Origin: Escherichia coli
GTDB taxonomy: Bacteria; Pseudomonadota; Gammaproteobacteria; Enterobacterales; Enterobacteriaceae
Strand: one strand, 5' to 3'
Assembly (NCBI RefSeq): GCF_045037415.1
Contig: NZ_CP173438.1
Length of the DNA: 64,000 bases
In this document: piece by piece, positions 55,540 to 62,998 of the stretch
How positions within the stretch are numbered: the first letter of the stretch is position 1
How the letters are laid out: each line of letters begins with the position of its first letter
Made by a program: the position numbers and the translations under genes
The notes under the pieces: model-generated
The model's input: only the letters and a program-made list of their open reading frames with translations
Database searches by the model: none
Told to the model about the DNA's origin: nothing

Positions 55540-55763
55540 ATTGACTTAGAAAAAGTCCGGGGCTATAGTTTCCGCGCAGCCGCAAAATCGGTTGCCGGGA
55601 TTGGCGTCCCGGATATCTAAGTGACGCATAGCCGCGTTAGCGGTTTTTTTATGTGTTAGGCACGGCCACATTCGCATTATGGTGGGCTGTGTGGGGGCTT
55701 CTGTGGAAGCGCCGGGTTCACTTAGCCGGTTACGCCAACCCTGCACAGCTCACCACCAGATGA

Positions 55764-56600
55764 TTGGCGTCGCTGGTGGTGATGAAAAAAACACTAAGTG
55801 AGGCCACTGCGATGACAGTCCAAATATCTGCGGAATCCCTTTCTCCGCTACATCATAACCAACTTCCCGTCATCACTACTGAATTGCTTGCCAGTTTGTA
55901 TGGCACGGAAGTAAATGGTATCCAGCAAAACTTCAAGCGCAACATCGCCAGATTTGTCGTAGGAAAGCATTTTTTTAAGCTGGAAGGTAATGAATTACGC
56001 GACTTCAAAAACAGACTGACAGATAGTCAGTCAGTTGCTAAACATACCCGATCCCTCATTCTCTGGACAGAACGCGGCGCAGCTCGCCATGCCAAAATGC
56101 TGGAAACAGAACAGGCCTGGGAAGTTTTCGAAAAGCTGGAAGATTGTTATTTTAGCCAGCGTCCAGAGAGGCGGAGTACAACTACCGATGACCGTACTCC
56201 CTTGCGTGATGCCGTTAATATACTGGTCGGCAAGAAAGGCATGATGTATCCCGATGCCTACACCATGATTCATCAACGCTTCGCCGTCTCTCACATAGAA
56301 CAACTGTCACAGACGCAAATGTTAGAGGCGATTGAATACATCCACTGCCTGCTACTCGATGAAAATCACCCAACCATTCCAGATTTTTCTTTTATCACCA
56401 CTATCAAAAATGGAAAAGTGACCGGGATGCGCCATGTTGCCAAAGGCGAACATCTGATGACCTTTGACGCTTTCAAAGAGATCGCTGAGCGGGCAGGGTA
56501 TCTGGTGATCCACAGCGACAATCTGCGAAGTATGACACTGGATAAATTGATGGTAATGGGGAAAAAGTCGGCTATATCCGTTGCTAATTCAGCATTTTGA
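55764..56600 (+). CDS. ORF6N/KilA-N-domain protein (antirepressor-like)
   Basis: N-terminal ...LPVITTELLASLYGTEVNGIQQNFKRNIARFVVGKHFFKLEGNELRDF... pattern; start codon uncertain. Confidence 0.6.
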   Translation: MASLVVMKKTLSEATAMTVQISAESLSPLHHNQLPVITTELLASLYGTEVNGIQQNFKRNIARFVVGKHFFKLEGNELRDFKNRLTDSQSVAKHTRSLILWTERGAARHAKMLETEQAWEVFEKLEDCYFSQRPERRSTTTDDRTPLRDAVNILVGKKGMMYPDAYTMIHQRFAVSHIEQLSQTQMLEAIEYIHCLLLDENHPTIPDFSFITTIKNGKVTGMRHVAKGEHLMTFDAFKEIAERAGYLVIHSDNLRSMTLDKLMVMGKKSAISVANSAF

Positions 56601-56628
56601 CAGGTTGTTTGGGGCGGAAATACTCTAT

Positions 56629-56696
56629 TTGCGCTTAAAAAGGTATTTGACCACGACCAGCACGAGACCGAATACCTCTGTCAAAGTACCGCCCAT
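56629..56696. repeat. Direct repeat copy 1 (68 bp): 3'-end remnant of a membrane-protein gene
   Basis: 63 of 68 positions identical to 60051-60118; minus strand encodes a 23-codon remnant MGGTLTEVFGLVLVVVKYLFKRK preceded by a stop. Confidence 0.85.
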
Positions 56697-56774
56697 ATAA
56701 AACAGTTACATATGCACTTGATGACTAAGCTGGCACCAGGTTAACACCTGGCGCCAGCTTGAAGGAGACTTCAG

Positions 56775-57698
56775 TTATTGGTTTCTGAGGAAAGCGATTC
56801 TTGAAAGGGTCATTTGCGTCTGGCAGTCGACCATTTTCTTGACTTCAGCATCTGTTCCCTGCATTGAAACTTTACCGCACATAGCATCCTTAGTTTTGAT
56901 CCACTGACGCTGAGAAGGCAGCAAATCTTTTTTCTTCGCCGGGGTTAACTTGCTCCAGACGGTACTCAAATCAGAGTCGGCATTCGCAAATGCCATTCGG
57001 GACTGATCAAGGTTGTCAGCTTTTTGCGGCTGAAGTTGTGCCTGTCTCTCTATTTGCTTCTCCGCCTCATACTTAGCCTGTTCTTGCGCCCTGAGTTGCA
57101 CCTGTTGTTCCGCTTCAATTTGACTCTGTTGGGCATCCTTAGCCTGCTGGATTTTCTGCTGCTCAACGATCGGGGTGATAATGGAAAGCGATGTCAGTAA
57201 AGCGGCGCCCACTGATATCGGATTATCAGTAGAGGTTTTTACAAAAACGTTTTTCTGATCGTCGGTCGCCTGCACGGTGTAGGTGATACGTTTTGAAAAG
57301 GCGTTTGCGTTGTTCTCCAAAAACAGGCTTTCCATTTGCTTATCGAGATTACGATTAAAATTCTTTCTGTAAGCATCTGAAAGCTGGACGTACTCGTTCG
57401 CAGATAGAGTCATCGTCACGGTCCCTTCACAAGTTTTCATTGTGCTGCCCGTGTCACTTGATGTTGTGGAGATCTCAGAGATGGCTAGTTTGATCTTGTC
57501 CAGTGTGCTTCGTTTGGTCTGATTAGTGACATCAGGGTATTTATCGACCTGTTCAGAGAGTCCTTCATAAGCAGATTTTTTTAATAAATCCATGAGAGCT
57601 GACTGGGTTATTTCCGAAGAACAACCGATCTCATCTTTTTTGTTATCACAGCCTGTAAGGGCAATGGCGAGTAAGAGTACTGAGTATTTTAATCTCAT
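56775..57698 (-). CDS. Prophage lipoprotein with LprI/DUF1311-like C-terminal region
   Basis: Lipobox LTGC after signal peptide MRLKYSVLLLAIA; Gln-rich coiled-coil middle; C-terminal two-Cys region ...WIKTKDAMCGK...MVDCQTQMTLSRIAFL. Confidence 0.65.
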   Translation of the reverse strand: MRLKYSVLLLAIALTGCDNKKDEIGCSSEITQSALMDLLKKSAYEGLSEQVDKYPDVTNQTKRSTLDKIKLAISEISTTSSDTGSTMKTCEGTVTMTLSANEYVQLSDAYRKNFNRNLDKQMESLFLENNANAFSKRITYTVQATDDQKNVFVKTSTDNPISVGAALLTSLSIITPIVEQQKIQQAKDAQQSQIEAEQQVQLRAQEQAKYEAEKQIERQAQLQPQKADNLDQSRMAFANADSDLSTVWSKLTPAKKKDLLPSQRQWIKTKDAMCGKVSMQGTDAEVKKMVDCQTQMTLSRIAFLRNQ

Positions 57699-58885
57699 GA
57701 ATTCCCTTTAGAGTAAGGATTGGTTTTTAAGACGCGGTCTGTAATCAGTCCCGAGAGCTACAGTAAACAACGCTGAGCACTGAACGCATCACAGGTAAGG
57801 TAAAAGGTGATATCGGCAAAGGCTGTGAAACCTTTAATTCAACAGATGGGAACGGTATGCGCAGGATCCTGTAACGACGCTCCCAAAACCGGAAACCTGT
57901 AAGGCATGTTTTCGCTGCTGAACTTAATATACGAACCTGCACTATCATGAACATATTTTATATCGTTATACCCCGAGTGATTGTGCCCGGCAATGGATAG
58001 TGTCCTGGAGGAACTATTTCTACTGTAAAAGGTAGATATTTAATTTCAGTTTTGAATTATTCCCTGCTGTTAATAACAATGGCTGTATATGGCACCGAGT
58101 AGGCATTTTTTCGCTTACTGAAGGGCAGCTGTGAGCGAGGAACAGACTTTCCCTACTTCGTTGAGAGTACACCTAGTACAATCAAGGCTAAATGATAAAA
58201 ATATACAAAATATCATATTTATGATATATATAATGGCATTAATCTTATTCTTGGATTACGTTGAAAGGGTAATATTATATTTGTGTAACATAGTTTAGAT
58301 AACAATGCCGTTATGGGGGGGGAAAGACATTTCAACATATTAGCTTTGTATCTAACGCTCATGTAGATCTCGATTTTGAACTTAAAGAACAATTATTTTT
58401 TAGAGAGCAAGGTATTTTTGGGGAACAAAAACATAAAGTAATGGAGAGAGGAGAATGTATCAAAAAATCATCGATTTAATTTAGATTGTCCGTATAGTTG
58501 GGGGTAAGTCGAATCGCTGGGCTACATGGAATATTGTGTCAAGTAAAAATATATTTCAATCTTGCAATAACCGATTGTTGAAAATAATGTCAAATCTTAA
58601 TGGTGAATGGGGAGAATATAATAAACATGAGTCGATATTATGCAAATGGATTTAAATATTTTATACCCGAAGACATAGGGTTTCGAGAGTTCGATGAGAC
58701 TACTTTGAATGCTTTCGAATTTGCTGGCTAAAACATATAGGTTATATCTTACATCTGTTTGTAATGGAGCGTAGATGCGACAAGCTACACCATAATAATC
58801 ATATTATGATATATTGTTAAGTTGTTATGGCATTAAATAAAATTATGTCATTTTGTTAACCAAGCAAGAATCAAAGGACTTTTAG

Positions 58886-59584
58886 ATGGGTACGGCATTA
58901 ATTTCAAGCTTTATTAGTGGTGCAATAGCTATAATCTCTATTGCTATATCTACTTATAATCAGAATAGAATAAACAAGCTCAATGAATCACTGGATGTAA
59001 GGAGAAAACATCAGTACTATATTGAACCGTTAATTCGCTCAGCTTCAGACTTACAAAGCCGTATTTATAATATATTAGAATTGGGGTTCATTGAAGAGTT
59101 TTATCATAATGGGAATAAGCGCCAACAAGATTATGTTATCAACAATACTGTTTTTCTTTTTTCCCAGTTTTTTGCATGGACAGAAGCTGCCCGCATAGAC
59201 ATTCAATACCTTAGCCTAGAAAAAAATAAAAAAATGAGGGAGTTTATTAGATTACAGAACAATATTAACTCATTAATCCAAACAGACGTCTTTGGTCAGT
59301 ATTTTATGTTTTTCATAGGAGAGCAGAGAGCTATTGCAGAAAAGATGCTGATATCAACAGATACTGGATTTGATTGCATAGGTTACGGCAGTTTCACAAA
59401 GGAAAATTGCTTTATCAATGAGCCATTTTTTTTAGATTTAAACAATGAAGTGATAAATATGACAAGAGATATCGGAATTTATAAAGAAAGGCTAATCAGA
59501 ATACAGCACGCGTTAATCGATTTAATTAATTTTCTTGATCCTGGCATGATTCGATTTGACGGAAAAAAATATGGAAAAATATAA
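58886..59584 (+). CDS. Hypothetical single-pass membrane protein (232 aa), AT-rich foreign-looking gene
   Basis: N-terminal TM helix MGTALISSFISGAIAIISIAISTY then ~200-aa soluble region with no recognisable motif; AAAGGA RBS. Confidence 0.6.
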   Translation: MGTALISSFISGAIAIISIAISTYNQNRINKLNESLDVRRKHQYYIEPLIRSASDLQSRIYNILELGFIEEFYHNGNKRQQDYVINNTVFLFSQFFAWTEAARIDIQYLSLEKNKKMREFIRLQNNINSLIQTDVFGQYFMFFIGEQRAIAEKMLISTDTGFDCIGYGSFTKENCFINEPFFLDLNNEVINMTRDIGIYKERLIRIQHALIDLINFLDPGMIRFDGKKYGKI

Positions 59585-59769
59585 CCCAGATGATTCGTAT
59601 CAAGGTAAGTTGCTATATGTATCAATTTAATTATGGTTGGGTGAAATTTATGTTAATAGTAGCGGAGGGTTAGTTAAAATATGCTCTCAGTGATTTTTGG
59701 ATAGTTCTTTTATTTATCATTGAAAGTAAATATGTATAGCTTCAAGATTTACAAGTGAATCTGTTTATT

Positions 59770-59801
59770 GACAGTCCGCTTATGGCACAGAGCGGACTGT
59801 C
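59770..59801 (+). terminator. Hairpin, possible terminator of the 232-aa gene
   Basis: Inverted repeat GACAGTCCGC...GCGGACTGTC; weak downstream T-run. Confidence 0.4.
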
Positions 59802-60046
59802 ATATTAAATTTGGCTCCACGCCATAGATGTGTCAGCTCATATCTTATCTAATACACACAATAACTTTCTCATTCTTGGAGAATTATTTTTTTAAGGGTA
59901 GGTGTTGACGTTAGAGCAAAAGAATGGTGATTTTTTTGATGTGTATTACGTTGGAACTGATGGGAATAACTATCTGTTTTCAACGCACTGCTAATTTATC
60001 AAGGCCCTTTGATCAGGGCCTTCGAAAGACTGTTGGACCGAGAGAG

Positions 60047-60652
60047 TTACTTGCGTTTAAAAAGGTATTTTGTCACGACCAGCACGAGGCCGAATACCTC
60101 TGTCAAAGTACCGCCCATGTACAACTGTAGTGTTAAATCCTCAAATTCCAGCTTACCTGCGCCGTCGGCAATAAATACACCATTCATTATCAGAAGTTGG
60201 AAAGCAAGGATAATCAGGAACCATTTCCCGTATCGTTTTTTTAGAGCGATTTCTGCTTCAAAATCTTTGTTGTTGAGTTGTTTGCGCTCATGCTCGGTAT
60301 CAAGTGAATTCACCTGTTTCACAGATGTGAACTCGGTCAAGATTTTACTCTCAGTACGGGTGACTTGTTGAGAGGGTGTAGCAGTTGGAATTCTTTTGCT
60401 AGACGCAGCTACAGCCATTTTGCGAGCTTCGGCAGCTCTTTTTCTGGCTATTCCGCGAATACGGACAGCCGTTTTTTTGGGGGCGTGCGAAACCTTTGGC
60501 TGAGGTGAAGCTTCGTCAGGAGACTGAACCGGAGTTTCATCGTCCTCCGGCTCAACCTCTTCTGCTAACTGACGGTGTAGGTTGAGGGAATCCTTCAGTC
60601 TGCGTGCTACTTCCTGTTTGAAACGGCTGTTAAAATCGTCATCCGATGGCAT
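60047..60652 (-). CDS. Hypothetical membrane protein: charged, disordered N-terminal region plus C-terminal two-TM hairpin
   Basis: WFLIILAFQLLIMNGVFIA and GGTLTEVFGLVLVVTKYLF hydrophobic segments; start 10 nt after the upstream stop. Confidence 0.65.
   Translation of the reverse strand: MPSDDDFNSRFKQEVARRLKDSLNLHRQLAEEVEPEDDETPVQSPDEASPQPKVSHAPKKTAVRIRGIARKRAAEARKMAVAASSKRIPTATPSQQVTRTESKILTEFTSVKQVNSLDTEHERKQLNNKDFEAEIALKKRYGKWFLIILAFQLLIMNGVFIADGAGKLEFEDLTLQLYMGGTLTEVFGLVLVVTKYLFKRK
60051..60118. repeat. Direct repeat copy 2 (68 bp): authentic 3' end of the 201-aa membrane-protein gene
   Basis: Encodes C-terminus ...QLYMGGTLTEVFGLVLVVTKYLFKRK of ORF 60047-60652. Confidence 0.85.
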
Positions 60653-60661
60653 TTTAAAGCG

Positions 60662-61150
60662 TTACCCCAACCTCAAGTTCTTTAAACGATAAGTCATCGC
60701 ATCGTCAGATACGCCAAAATAATGCGCCATTATATAACTTGGTTGACCGTCAGCGTGCAGTTTTCTGACCTCATCTACCGGCATCAGAAGTTCTGCTGCG
60801 AACTTGTTTGCAAAAATTTCATCAGGATGCGTTCCGGCGCTTGCGGTTTCGCCACGTAAATCAACGTACTCATATTCATCGCTATGCGATGCTTGCCGGG
60901 CGATGTAATGCCCCAACTCATGCCCACATGAAAAACGTTGACGAACTTTGTTGTCATCACTGTTTAGAAAGATCGCTGGATCTTGATCTTTTTGTTTAAT
61001 CAGTGCGCCAGAAACTTTCCCAGGAAGATCGGTAATAAAAACATCTAATCCCATGTCGTGAGCAATTTTCGCTGGATCAACAGGGAAACCACGCCCGCAC
61101 CAGAACGTGTCCAGCACTCGCCGGGCGTGCTCTCTTGGGTTGGTAGCCAT
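60662..61150 (-). CDS. ImmA/IrrE-family Zn-metallopeptidase (COG2856-like)
   Basis: HEXXH motif in SCGHELGHYIA; 162 aa; GGAGG RBS. Confidence 0.75.
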   Translation of the reverse strand: MATNPREHARRVLDTFWCGRGFPVDPAKIAHDMGLDVFITDLPGKVSGALIKQKDQDPAIFLNSDDNKVRQRFSCGHELGHYIARQASHSDEYEYVDLRGETASAGTHPDEIFANKFAAELLMPVDEVRKLHADGQPSYIMAHYFGVSDDAMTYRLKNLRLG

Positions 61151-61526
61151 AGCTCCTCCAGTTACTGCATTACGATTATTGGTTGAAATATAGACAGCAT
61201 GTTCCGTACCACATTCCTGTAAAAGTGCAAATTCTGCACTTCTGGTACGATATTAACTGTTAGTAGTAAAGTCTTCCAGATAAATCACTTTAAAATCTTG
61301 TGAATTGCTTGCTTTTTACGCTGTATTGTGGATGGTTCAATGTTTCCAGTAAAAACATACATGATAATCATGAGTTTAGTGTTTTTTTAGGCGTCTATAT
61401 GTTTCTGGAAAATACAGGTCTAACCTGATCTTATCGTTGAGATTTTTTGTACTCAGTATGCGTGAACGATTCGACCAGGTGACTGTGTACGTGAAGAAGA
61501 CCGCCCTTAATATTTTAAATGTGCAA

Positions 61527-61542
61527 CCCCTCAGAAGAGGGG
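61527..61542 (-). terminator. Hairpin downstream of the 77-aa gene, possible terminator
   Basis: CCCCTC-AGAA-GAGGGG followed on the minus strand by an A/T-rich tract. Confidence 0.4.
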
Positions 61543-61548
61543 CTACTC

Positions 61549-61782
61549 TCACTTCTGCAGTATCTCGCCAATACCTGCCAGATTCTCGTCCATCTTGTCA
61601 CCGTTTTCGATAAGGATGGAGTTGAGCCGATTCAGTTGCATAGCAATTTCAAGTTTGATTAAGGTATCCACCGATACACCAGTTTCTTTTGCTAACTTAG
61701 TAAGAGCCGCAGCTCGATTGGCTAAATTAAAATCATCGAACTCATAACGACTTCTGCACGGCTGGTTGCCTAACGTACCCAT
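61549..61782 (-). CDS. Hypothetical small prophage protein
   Basis: 77-aa ORF with GAGGA RBS. Confidence 0.5.
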   Translation of the reverse strand: MGTLGNQPCRSRYEFDDFNLANRAAALTKLAKETGVSVDTLIKLEIAMQLNRLNSILIENGDKMDENLAGIGEILQK

Positions 61783-62667: not shown

Positions 62668-62818
62668 TGACCATAAACGGTTTAATCCCCTATAAAACCG
62701 TTTAATAAAATTCACGACGTGAATATAATTGTTCATTATTCCCTCATTGTATTTGGCGTTATGACAAATGCCATAAAATACTGTATAAATATACAGGTTG
62801 TGGCATTGGGGGGAAGAC

Positions 62819-62998
62819 ATGAATATTCAAGAATCTATAGGCGAACTACCGGAAACATGCCGGGCTGTTATCAAGCGTAAGGACGGACACATCGTTGGTG
62901 TGCGTGTTCTGACCGATGATGAGCGGATTGCCAGCCTGATGGCGTTTCTCGAGTTGGCAGAAATAGCTGGATATACTATTACACCCCCTGACGCGTAA
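62819..62998 (+). CDS. Hypothetical small prophage protein
   Basis: 59 aa from MNIQESIGELPE. Confidence 0.4.
   Translation: MNIQESIGELPETCRAVIKRKDGHIVGVRVLTDDERIASLMAFLELAEIAGYTITPPDA

What the first reader, a model, noticed from the sequence alone, without database searches (positions are those of the whole stretch)
60047..61150. Translationally coupled ImmA/IrrE-type Zn-peptidase plus 2-TM membrane protein: candidate uncharacterised defence/exclusion module
A standalone HEXXH metallopeptidase (no fused or adjacent XRE HTH partner) sits 10 nt upstream of a protein with a long charged, disordered N-terminus and a C-terminal two-helix membrane hairpin. The pair lies in AT-rich prophage cargo, and the 3' end of the membrane-protein gene is the repeated boundary of a neighbouring cassette. 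ImmA-family peptidases normally pair with a cleavable HTH repressor; pairing with a membrane protein is unusual and fits a toxin/effector-plus-protease logic. This is inference from architecture, not a match to a named system.
Basis: partly seen in the sequence, partly recalled or inferred. Interest (0 to 1): 0.75.

Follow-up and report, generated by a model that had tools for sequence, protein, structure and literature searches.

The report
Rosmer-type protease plus membrane toxin pair
The two genes are real and always travel together, but they are an E. coli prophage copy of an already described toxin–antitoxin/anti-phage family (RosmerTA, the type tested in Gordonia phage Kita), not a new kind of system.

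Summary
Both genes exist as described, on the minus strand. One is a 162-aa M78/ImmA peptidase (60662..61150, HELGH). Nine nt downstream is a 201-aa protein (60047..60652) with an N-terminal helix, a roughly 85-aa disordered charged linker and a C-terminal two-helix membrane hairpin. An 81-nt copy of the gene's 3' end lies 3.4 kb away.

The pair sits in an E. coli lambdoid prophage, in variable cargo between the replication and nin/Q regions.

The pairing held at every locus checked with enough sequence to judge. These span enterobacterial prophages, P4-like elements, Mu-like phages, Gram-positive-type phages and actinophages.

The peptidase's closest phage relative is Gordonia phage Kita gp32 (43% identity). 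This is RmrA(D25), the antitoxin of a RosmerTA system validated by Ernits et al. 2023. Kita's downstream toxin RmrT(D5) depolarises the membrane. It aligns with the hairpin here and matches the family profile, whereas unrelated membrane proteins score nothing.

Most likely function: a toxin–antitoxin/abortive-infection module with a pore-forming toxin held in check by the protease. This is inferred by homology and was not tested here.

It differs from canonical Rosmer in lacking an HTH domain and in its long linker. PADLOC's Rosmer toxin models do not detect it.

Verdict: new member of a known kind, of modest interest.

The parts
60662..61150 (-). rmrA-like gene: a standalone 162-aa M78 (ImmA/IrrE) zinc peptidase and the putative antitoxin. 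It has HELGH at residues 77-81 and a likely third zinc ligand at E111. It has no HTH domain.
   Evidence: ORF. Pfam PF06114 at 1.1e-17. PADLOC capP at 2.4e-25 and RmrA at 5.8e-12, peptidase part only. phrog_87 metallo-protease. 43% identity, E 1.4e-41, to Kita gp32 = RmrA(D25). Catalytic residues invariant.
60653..60661 (-). The 9-nt gap between the peptidase stop codon and the toxin start codon (CGCTTTAAA). It suggests one operon and possibly translational coupling.
   Evidence: Relatives have gaps from -8 to +11 nt.
60047..60652 (-). rmrT(D5)-like gene: a 201-aa putative membrane-depolarising toxin.
   Evidence: ORF. phrog_5346 only, with no Pfam, PADLOC or PDB match. 48 clusters of close homologues. 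1097 representatives match the C-terminal profile. Homology to Kita RmrT(D5).
60557..60640 (-). Toxin residues 5-32: a conserved cytoplasmic N-terminal helix (VL..LK.TLNQHRQ in enterobacterial members).
   Evidence: Alignments A1 and A4. AF2 helix with pLDDT 84-90.
60299..60556 (-). Toxin residues 33-118: a hypervariable, charged, Pro/Ser/Ala-rich disordered linker. Its length ranges from about 0 to 100 aa in homologues.
   Evidence: Length variation in A1 and A4. pLDDT 46-58.
60062..60298 (-). Toxin residues 119-197: a juxtamembrane helix plus TM1 (119-164), a short loop, and TM2 (172-197). TM2 carries the invariant T182, E185, G188, L197 and F198. This is the conserved core of the family.
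   Evidence: Hydropathy. AF2. Invariant columns, Kita included. Profile search.
61151..61548 (-). A roughly 400-nt untranslated stretch upstream of the peptidase, presumably holding the promoter. No consensus sigma-70 site and no LexA box were found. A weak terminator-like hairpin lies at 61427-61415.
   Evidence: The stretch is not conserved between loci.
56625..56706 (-). A dead 26-codon 3' fragment of a second toxin gene, 89% identical at DNA level to 60048-60128. It is a recombination scar marking the other edge of the 3.4-kb LprI-like plus AT-rich cassette.
   Evidence: The same scar occurs in L037-L043, and a similar one in L036, where the pair itself has been replaced by other cargo.

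Best explanation
The pair is an HTH-less RosmerTA-type toxin-antitoxin/abortive-infection module of the same subtype as the RmrA(D25)-RmrT(D5) system of Gordonia phage Kita. It is carried as exchangeable cargo by an E. coli lambdoid prophage.

Shown here:
- The two genes form a tightly spaced operon that is conserved as a unit across very different mobile elements.
- The peptidase keeps an intact zinc active site.
- The partner is a C-terminally membrane-anchored hairpin protein that is homologous to Kita RmrT(D5).

Inferred by homology to the Kita experiments:
- The 201-aa protein inserts in the inner membrane and, when unchecked, oligomerises and depolarises or permeabilises it, stopping all macromolecular synthesis.
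- The peptidase is the antitoxin and keeps the toxin harmless in the lysogen.
- Infection by certain phages upsets this balance, so the infected cell is shut down before the phage completes its cycle. This protects the lysogen population and the prophage.

My own inference, untested: because the catalytic residues are invariant, neutralisation is probably proteolytic rather than simple binding. The likely target is the toxin's cytoplasmic N-terminal helix or disordered linker. The trigger would then be anything that blocks the peptidase or its synthesis.
For: - **Pairing.** An M78 peptidase lies directly upstream on the same strand in every locus with a full toxin gene and upstream sequence. 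These are K. oxytoca, Serratia, a second E. coli type and Salmonella; Pectobacterium, Pseudoalteromonas, Silvimonas and Salmonella Muenchen, found from the peptidase side; 16 of 16 IMG/VR loci; and 3 of 3 distant representatives, with 4-8 nt overlaps.
- **Position.** The module's location varies: next to int/attachment sites, between Q and lysis genes, in the nin region, and in P4-like elements. This is how morons and defence cargo behave.
- **Peptidase homology.** Apart from an identical E. coli phage fragment, the best hit in 50,697 phage records is the group of Gordonia phages that includes Kita gp32 (tblastn 5e-31; blastp 43% over 157 aa, E 1.4e-41).
- **Toxin homology.** blastp gives 32% identity over 57 aa, E 1.1e-6. 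hhalign gives probability 79%, E 1.5e-5 over 64 columns. A second-iteration HMM scores Kita RmrT(D5) at 36.2 bits, E 4.7e-4 for a 1.84-billion-protein search space. Two other membrane proteins encoded beside related peptidases score 0 bits or less.
- **Gene order.** It is the same as in Kita: peptidase first, then toxin.
- **Published function of the Kita pair** (PMC10440598). The toxin abolishes translation, transcription and replication, and it depolarises and permeabilises E. coli membranes. The antitoxin partly neutralises it. The native operon protects E. coli against phages Bas54 and Bas59.
- **Catalytic site.** H77, E78, H81 and E111 are invariant.
- **Surroundings.** The locus behaves as a cargo hotspot: in L036 the pair is replaced and an NsnA/PD-T4-2_A-like gene (4.6e-41) lies nearby.
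Against: - Nothing was tested experimentally for this E. coli pair.
- The toxin homology rests on about 60-75 residues that are mostly transmembrane, with moderate E-values.
- PADLOC v2 RmrT models do not match the toxin even at E up to 1, and RmrA models match only the peptidase half. Standard tools would therefore not call this locus Rosmer.
- Canonical RmrA proteins carry an N-terminal XRE HTH domain that is absent here.
- In the Kita study the antitoxin neutralised the toxin only partly, and the complex could not be modelled (pDockQ 0.05). How the peptidase acts is unknown even for the reference system.
- Defence in Kita was narrow, covering 2 BASEL phages.
- No promoter was identified upstream.
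Confidence: 0.7

Rival explanations
1. The parts are the same but the logic is reversed. The 201-aa protein is made as an inactive pro-toxin, auto-inhibited by its N-terminal helix and linker. The peptidase is a sensor-activator which, like CapP, IrrE or ImmA, is switched on by a phage or DNA-damage cue. It then cuts the linker and releases the active pore.
For: The peptidase's best PADLOC and PDB matches are to CapP (2.4e-25; 7t5t at E 1.7e-4). By published work on that family (named from my own knowledge, not tested here), CapP is a signal-activated protease. The long disordered linker between a conserved helix and the membrane core looks like a protease substrate. The catalytic residues are invariant.
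Against: In the homologous Kita pair the toxin alone is immediately toxic and the peptidase reduces toxicity (PMC10440598). rmrA genes could not be deleted, or are essential, in other Rosmer systems (preprint 10.1101/2022.05.11.491447; preprint 10.64898/2025.12.09.693261). Many family members have almost no linker (111-125 aa proteins). The peptidase lacks CapP's C-terminal domain, since only profile positions 3-151 of 242 are matched.
Confidence: 0.12
2. The module is a selfish addiction/stabilisation cassette, or a membrane-level superinfection-exclusion factor, with no abortive-infection role. It persists because losing it kills the cell, or because the membrane protein blocks DNA entry.
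For: It has toxin-antitoxin architecture and lies on mobile elements, at integration-site ends and inside prophages. It is highly conserved in 456 E. coli genomes. The recombination scars show that it moves as a cassette.
Against: The Kita homologue does defend against phages when cloned away from its element. Chromosomally integrated prophages gain little from post-segregational killing. The neighbouring cargo slots hold defence-type genes.
Confidence: 0.12
3. The peptidase is the prophage's ImmA-like induction protease, cleaving the prophage's short HTH repressor. The membrane protein is an unrelated passenger.
For: ImmA-family proteases do this in ICEBs1 and some phages (summarised in PMC10440598). 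This prophage's annotated repressor candidate is a short HTH protein.
Against: The peptidase is never found without the membrane partner and is never next to a conserved HTH gene, in elements with quite different regulatory regions. This prophage has its own antirepressor machinery: an ORF6N antirepressor preceded by C4/isrK antisense RNA, and a perfect LexA box in front of a small phrog_340 gene. No LexA box lies upstream of the pair.
Confidence: 0.03
4. The pair is a lysis-timing device: a holin-like membrane protein with a protease regulator.
For: The partner is a small two-TM protein. Some homologous pairs sit beside lysis genes, for example Serratia between Q and holin and several metagenomic phages next to endolysin or holin genes.
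Against: In this prophage the annotated holins and endolysin lie downstream of Q, several kb away. In other hosts the pair sits next to integrases or in satellites that have no lysis genes. Kita RmrT arrested growth without a drop in OD.
Confidence: 0.03

Closest known systems
RosmerTA of Gordonia phage Kita: RmrA(D25) = gp32 (YP_009301393.1) and RmrT(D5) = gp33 (YP_009301394.1); Ernits et al. 2023, PMC10440598
   Same: Both have a standalone M78 peptidase without an HTH domain, 43% identical here. Both have peptidase-then-toxin order with the genes touching. Both toxins have a short acidic or helical N-terminus and a homologous C-terminal two-helix membrane hairpin with a shared T..E..G...LF signature. 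Both are phage-borne.
   Different: The toxin here is 201 aa against 119 aa, because of an inserted disordered linker of about 85 aa and a longer conserved N-terminal helix. The hosts differ (Proteobacteria versus Actinobacteria). Toxin identity is only about 30% over the hairpin. No experiments exist for this version.
Canonical RosmerTA (Millman et al. 2022; PADLOC RmrA and RmrT models)
   Same: Both are two-gene toxin-antitoxin systems with a Zn-peptidase antitoxin. Both are found on mobile elements and in defence contexts.
   Different: Canonical RmrA is about 360-400 aa, with an N-terminal XRE HTH domain. Here only the peptidase half matches (profile positions about 166-266 of 363). PADLOC RmrT models do not match the toxin.
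CapH/CapP regulators of CBASS and other defence operons (PDB 7t5t)
   Same: The M78 peptidase domain gives the best PADLOC and PDB sequence match.
   Different: There is no CapH HTH partner, no CapP C-terminal domain and no downstream defence operon to regulate. Here the partner is a membrane protein.
ImmR/ImmA of ICEBs1 and related phage repressor/antirepressor pairs
   Same: It is a small standalone ImmA-size M78 peptidase on a mobile element.
   Different: There is no adjacent ImmR-like repressor. The conserved partner is a membrane toxin, and the module moves independently of any regulatory region.
Membrane-depolarising toxins of Panacea (PanA-PanT) systems, e.g. B. choladocola PanT(D11)
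   Same: Both are small toxins with a cytoplasmic N-terminal segment and C-terminal TM helices, neutralised by a protein antitoxin encoded alongside. The Kita authors used this toxin as the functional comparison.
   Different: The antitoxin domain differs (DUF4065 Panacea versus M78 peptidase). No sequence relationship was tested here.

Membership tests
RosmerTA, Kita subtype (NetFlax D25:D5) | The antitoxin is a Peptidase_M78 (ImmA) protein homologous to RmrA(D25). | tested here: met
   blastp gives 43% identity over 157 aa, E 1.4e-41. tblastn gives 5e-31, the best non-identical hit in the phage collection. Pfam PF06114 matches.
RosmerTA, Kita subtype (NetFlax D25:D5) | The toxin is homologous to RmrT(D5), with a C-terminal membrane region. 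| tested here: met
   blastp E 1.1e-6. hhalign probability 79%, E 1.5e-5. The iterated HMM gives 36.2 bits, E 4.7e-4 at Z = 1.84e9, with negative controls at 0 bits or less. Invariant T182, E185, G188, L197 and F198 are shared with Kita. The caveat is that the region is short and mostly transmembrane.
RosmerTA, Kita subtype (NetFlax D25:D5) | A conserved bicistronic arrangement: peptidase first, then toxin, with the genes adjacent or overlapping. | tested here: met
   The gap here is 9 nt. Kita's genes overlap by 4 nt. All loci surveyed show the arrangement.
RosmerTA, Kita subtype (NetFlax D25:D5) | The toxin is toxic and depolarises the membrane, the peptidase neutralises it, and the operon protects against phage. 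| not testable with these tools
   This is known only for the Kita pair (PMC10440598).
Canonical RosmerTA as detected by PADLOC v2 | RmrA has an N-terminal XRE HTH domain fused to the peptidase. | tested here: not met
   The protein is 162 aa. PADLOC RmrA models align only to their peptidase part, and Pfam finds only PF06114.
Canonical RosmerTA as detected by PADLOC v2 | The partner matches an RmrT model. | tested here: not met
   No RmrT hit was found at E up to 1.
CapH/CapP | An adjacent CapH-type HTH repressor and a regulated defence operon. | tested here: not met
   No HTH gene is conserved next to the pair, and upstream DNA is not conserved.
CapH/CapP | A full-length CapP, with the peptidase plus its C-terminal domain. 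| tested here: not met
   The match covers capP profile positions 3-151 of 242 only. The PDB 7t5t chain is 291 aa and only residues 79-152 are matched.
ImmR/ImmA antirepressor module | The gene is encoded next to its cleavable HTH repressor in the element's regulatory region. | tested here: not met
   The pair lies in the nin-region cargo, about 9 kb from the prophage's HTH genes. In other elements it lies at attachment-site ends or near lysis genes.
Holin/antiholin lysis cassette | It is located in the late lysis operon with an endolysin. | tested here: not met
   The annotated holins and endolysin lie downstream of Q, outside the pair.

The most novel reading that the evidence does not exclude
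The HTH-less peptidase may neutralise the toxin catalytically, by continuously cutting its cytoplasmic N-terminal helix or hypervariable disordered linker. That would make it a true 'protease antitoxin'. The fast-evolving linker, 0-100 aa even among close relatives, would then be the sensor surface that phage products protect or mimic to set off the toxin. A second, independent point is that the near-invariant 3' end of the toxin gene serves as a recombination handle by which lambdoid prophages swap neighbouring defence cargo. Dead 24-35-codon copies are left at cassette edges.
Probability: 0.2. Interest if true: 0.55.

Novelty: new member of a known kind. Interest (0 to 1): 0.3.

Why it matters
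About 8% of complete E. coli genomes (456 of 5426) carry this exact module, which many of the best-matching records show to be human isolates. It is annotated only as 'ImmA/IrrE peptidase' plus 'hypothetical protein'. PADLOC's Rosmer toxin models do not match the membrane protein, and its RmrA models match only the peptidase half.

Linking it to the Kita RosmerTA system gives it a testable function. It also shows that the RmrT(D5)-type toxin family is large, at about 1100 clusters at 50% identity, and crosses phyla. It has no Pfam entry.

The E. coli version lives in a tractable host with its natural phages. That makes it a convenient place to settle the open mechanistic question for Rosmer systems: whether the peptidase neutralises by cleavage, and what the trigger is.

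It does not open a new category of system.

Tried and rejected
- **Conserved HTH or small gene upstream of the peptidase.** Upstream regions of three loci share nothing beyond the RBS. The 77-aa ORF at 61549..61782 belongs to the phage backbone: it is retained in L036, where the pair is replaced. It has no defence-model match.
- **SOS control of the pair.** There is no LexA box near it. The only perfect box in the window is at 62781-62796, in front of another gene.
- **Consensus promoter for the pair.** None was found on the minus strand between 61151 and 61548.
- **Direct protein search of the toxin against the phage collection.** There was no match. The link to Kita came through the peptidase instead.
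- **Toxin against Pfam, NCBIfam, PADLOC and PDB sequences.** Nothing meaningful was found.
- **NetFlax supplementary tables.** The E. coli accessions WP_000224749 and WP_001138663 are not in the held text. One file was truncated, so absence is not proven.
- **Rousset et al. E. coli papers.** I checked for this pair and it is not described there.
- **IS1 insertions in some strains.** I checked whether they inactivate the toxin. They lie downstream of it.
- **Fused peptidase-linker-toxin AlphaFold run.** I considered this and dropped it. The tool reports no inter-residue contacts, and the published Kita complex prediction was unreliable (pDockQ 0.05).
- **Che9c gp33 and a P2-like gp42.** These membrane proteins lie beside related peptidases but are not homologous to this toxin. 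Related peptidases can therefore pair with other membrane partners.
Full report
**1. What is in the sequence**

Two ORFs lie head to tail on the minus strand. One encodes a 162-aa protein (60662..61150) and the other a 201-aa protein (60047..60652). They are separated by 9 nt, CGCTTTAAA.

The first protein carries HELGH at residues 77-81. It matches Pfam Peptidase_M78 (IrrE N-terminal-like) at E 1.1e-17 over residues 32-157, with no other domain. It also matches phrog_87 'metallo-protease'. In PADLOC it matches capP (2.4e-25, profile positions 3-151 of 242) and several RmrA models (best 5.8e-12, peptidase part only). The only solved structure found by sequence is CapP, 7t5t (E 1.7e-4).

The second protein has no Pfam, NCBIfam, PADLOC or PDB match. 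It belongs only to phrog_5346, which has no assigned function. Hydropathy gives two hydrophobic segments, 142-166 and 175-193. An AlphaFold2 model built on 41 homologues has mean pLDDT 68. It shows a confident N-terminal helix (5-32), an unstructured stretch (33-118, pLDDT about 46-58), and two helices (119-164 and 172-197) joined by a short loop.

**2. Setting**

The region is an E. coli lambdoid prophage. A 2.4-kb query around the pair matches 456 of 5426 complete E. coli genomes, 416 of them at 99% identity or more.

In an annotated copy, the pair is labelled 'ImmA/IrrE family metallo-endopeptidase' plus 'hypothetical protein'. It lies between the replication genes and the DUF1367/DUF1364/Q antiterminator block, with the holin and endolysin genes further downstream.

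The pair itself is 44-49% GC. Its neighbour at about 58000-60000 is 30-34% GC.

Positions 56626-56706 and 60048-60128 are 89% identical over 81 nt. The distal copy translates to LFYMGGTLTEVFGLVLVVVKYLFKRK*, preceded by a stop codon. It is therefore a dead 3' fragment of another copy of the same gene. The two copies bracket a 3.4-kb insert that holds an LprI-family lipoprotein gene and the AT-rich 232-aa ORF.

In IMG/VR, one related prophage (L036) keeps the flanks and a similar scar but has other genes in place of the pair. Its neighbouring slot holds an NsnA/PD-T4-2_A-like DUF262 gene (4.6e-41). Another prophage (L022) has different cargo in place of the AT-rich gene. The locus therefore behaves as an exchangeable cargo hotspot.

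**3. Is the pairing conserved?**

Starting from the membrane protein, a word-indexed search found 48 clusters. All those that carry an organism name are from Enterobacterales or Plesiomonas. These proteins share a conserved N-terminal helix, a linker of very variable length, and a nearly invariant C-terminal 90 aa.

Contexts were read for four divergent members: K. oxytoca, Serratia marcescens, a second E. coli type and Salmonella. All have a 162-aa M78 peptidase directly upstream. The module's location differs between them. It lies between a tRNA/attachment site and an integrase in three cases, and between the Q-like antiterminator and the holin in Serratia. The DNA upstream of the peptidase is not conserved between three of these loci (this window, K. 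oxytoca and Serratia). There is therefore no hidden third gene or HTH partner.

Starting from the peptidase, homologues drop from 75-89% identity to a broad shelf at 45-60% identity. Four of these were read: Pectobacterium, Pseudoalteromonas, Silvimonas and Salmonella Muenchen. Each has a 111-145-aa gene 0-6 nt downstream, or overlapping by one base. The products end in the same two-helix motif.

A profile of the C-terminal 92 residues was scored against 1.84 billion representative proteins. It found 1097 proteins at E of 0.001 or below and 247 at 1e-10 or below, mostly 100-170 aa long. Three distant members were looked up. All had an M78 peptidase gene overlapping the toxin start by 4-8 nt, in Mu-like or Gram-positive-type phage contigs.

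In IMG/VR, 16 of 16 loci with a complete toxin gene and upstream sequence have the peptidase directly upstream.

I found no exception to the pairing. The module is two genes, and it is widespread.

**4. Link to a known system**

A tblastn search of the peptidase against 50,697 phage records gave one identical E. coli phage fragment. The next hits were a block of Gordonia phages that includes Kita (44% identity, 5e-31).

Kita gp32 and gp33 are the RmrA(D25) antitoxin and RmrT(D5) toxin of the RosmerTA system studied by Ernits et al. 2023 (PMC10440598). The accessions YP_009301393.1 and YP_009301394.1 were confirmed in that paper's supplement and in the phage record.

That paper reports the following:
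- The toxin abolishes translation, transcription and replication.
- It rapidly depolarises and permeabilises E. coli membranes.
- The antitoxin neutralises it only partly.
- The native antitoxin-toxin operon protects E. coli against BASEL phages Bas54 and Bas59.
- The ImmA domain is a hub antitoxin that pairs with many toxins, and it often, but not always, carries an HTH domain.

Pairwise, the two peptidases are 43% identical over 157 aa (E 1.4e-41). The toxins align over the whole hairpin: residues 144-199 here against 57-113 in Kita, 32% identity, E 1.1e-6.

Transmembrane segments can give spurious similarity, so I tested the toxin link further:
- hhalign of the family alignment against Kita gp33 gives probability 79%, E 1.5e-5 over 64 columns.
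- An HMM rebuilt from 156 family members scores Kita gp33 at 36.2 bits, E 4.7e-4 even for a 1.84-billion-sequence search space.
- Two other membrane proteins encoded next to related peptidases, Che9c gp33 and a P2-like gp42, score 0 bits or less against the same HMM.
- The columns T182, E185, G188, L197 and F198 are invariant across the family, Kita included.

Given the clear orthology of the adjacent peptidases and the identical gene order, I regard the toxins as homologous. The residual doubt is that the shared region is short.

**5. Mechanism**

*Shown here:*
- The operon is conserved and tightly spaced.
- The zinc site is intact, with H77, E78, H81 and E111 invariant in 19 peptidases at 35-100% identity.
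- The partner is a membrane hairpin with a buried invariant glutamate.
- The cytoplasmic part consists of a conserved helix and a hypervariable disordered linker.

*Inferred from the Kita experiments:*
- The membrane protein is a pore-forming or depolarising toxin.
- The peptidase is its antitoxin.
- The module acts as an abortive-infection defence.

*My own inference:* the catalytic residues would not be invariant if only binding mattered. Neutralisation is therefore probably proteolytic, acting on the toxin's cytoplasmic part. The trigger would be loss or inhibition of the peptidase.

The reverse logic, in which the peptidase activates a pro-toxin, is less likely. The Kita toxin is toxic on its own. 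In addition, rmrA genes are undeletable or essential in other Rosmer systems.

**6. Other rivals**

*Induction protease.* A role as the prophage's ImmA-like induction protease is unlikely. The peptidase always travels with the toxin and never with a repressor. The prophage has other antirepressor machinery: an ORF6N antirepressor preceded by C4/isrK-type antisense RNA, and a perfect LexA box in front of a small gene at 62798..62998. No LexA box precedes the pair.

*Lysis role.* This does not fit the pair's position in this prophage. It also does not fit its presence in satellites and at attachment-site ends.

*Pure addiction or exclusion.* This cannot be excluded without experiments.

**7. Membership and novelty**

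The Kita subtype of RosmerTA is defined by a standalone M78 antitoxin, a D5-type toxin, and antitoxin-then-toxin order. All sequence-level features of that subtype are met. The functional features cannot be tested here.

Against canonical Rosmer as encoded in PADLOC v2, two features fail. There is no HTH domain on the antitoxin, and no RmrT model matches. Annotation pipelines therefore leave the pair unnamed.

It is not a CapH/CapP, ImmR/ImmA or holin module; the individual tests are listed in the membership table.

The finding is a new, uncharacterised member of a known kind. The E. coli/enterobacterial branch is distinguished by its long, rapidly varying linker and by the recombination scars left by its conserved 3' end. 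Interest is modest.

Noticed in passing
window 62781-62796 and 62798..62998 (+): A perfect LexA box (CTGTATAAATATACAG) is the only zero-mismatch CTGT-N8-ACAG site in the 64-kb window. It lies just upstream of a 60-66-aa ORF (phrog_340). The same PHROG also matches the C-terminal part of the ORF6N antirepressor. It is probably an SOS-controlled small antirepressor for this prophage.
   Followed up: partly
window 55563-55760 (+), upstream of ORF 55764..56600: Rfam finds isrK (80 bits), C4 antisense RNA (75 bits) and its a1/b1 target (53 bits) directly upstream of the ORF6N/anti-repressor gene (phrog_4792). This is a P1 immI-like antisense-RNA-controlled antirepressor module.
   Followed up: no
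window 58886..59584 (+), within the 30-34% GC island at about 58000-60000: A 232-aa ORF (phrog_5606) has an N-terminal hydrophobic segment and a weak PADLOC match to RTasTM, the membrane partner of DRT systems (1.8e-5). It is followed by a strong hairpin terminator at 59769-59802. The slot holds different genes in related prophages (L022, L036). It may be single-gene defence cargo.
   Followed up: partly
window 56775..57698 (-): A 307-aa lipoprotein-like ORF is annotated elsewhere as 'lysozyme inhibitor LprI family' (phrog_5094). It lies inside the 3.4-kb insert bracketed by the two copies of the toxin 3' end.
   Followed up: no
window 56625-56706; loci L036-L043: Dead 24-35-codon copies of the toxin gene's 3' end recur at cassette edges in related prophages. 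In L036 this is so even though the intact pair has been replaced by other cargo. This suggests that the near-invariant 3' end serves as a recombination handle for cargo exchange.
   Followed up: partly
L036:3339-4397 (-): In a related IMG/VR prophage, the slot next to the scar holds a DUF262-type gene matching PADLOC NsnA (4.6e-41) and PD-T4-2_A (1.9e-19). Upstream is a 182-aa ORF with an RxxxxH-like motif. This supports the view that the nin-region slot is a defence hotspot.
   Followed up: partly
window about 61215-61240 (minus-strand upstream region of the peptidase): By eye, a 7-bp inverted repeat (AAGTGCA-N5-TGCACTT) lies about 70 nt upstream of the peptidase start. The K. oxytoca locus has a different palindrome at a similar distance. 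The repeat finder, at its thresholds, did not list it. It could be an operator or chance.
   Followed up: partly
L017 (Mycobacterium phage Che9c gp32/gp33) and L018 (P2-like phage gp41/gp42): Peptidases 45% and 37% identical to this one sit upstream of membrane proteins that are not homologous to this toxin. One has a single C-terminal TM helix and overlaps the peptidase gene. The other has two TM helices and lies 211 nt away. The same antitoxin lineage may therefore have swapped membrane toxins.
   Followed up: partly
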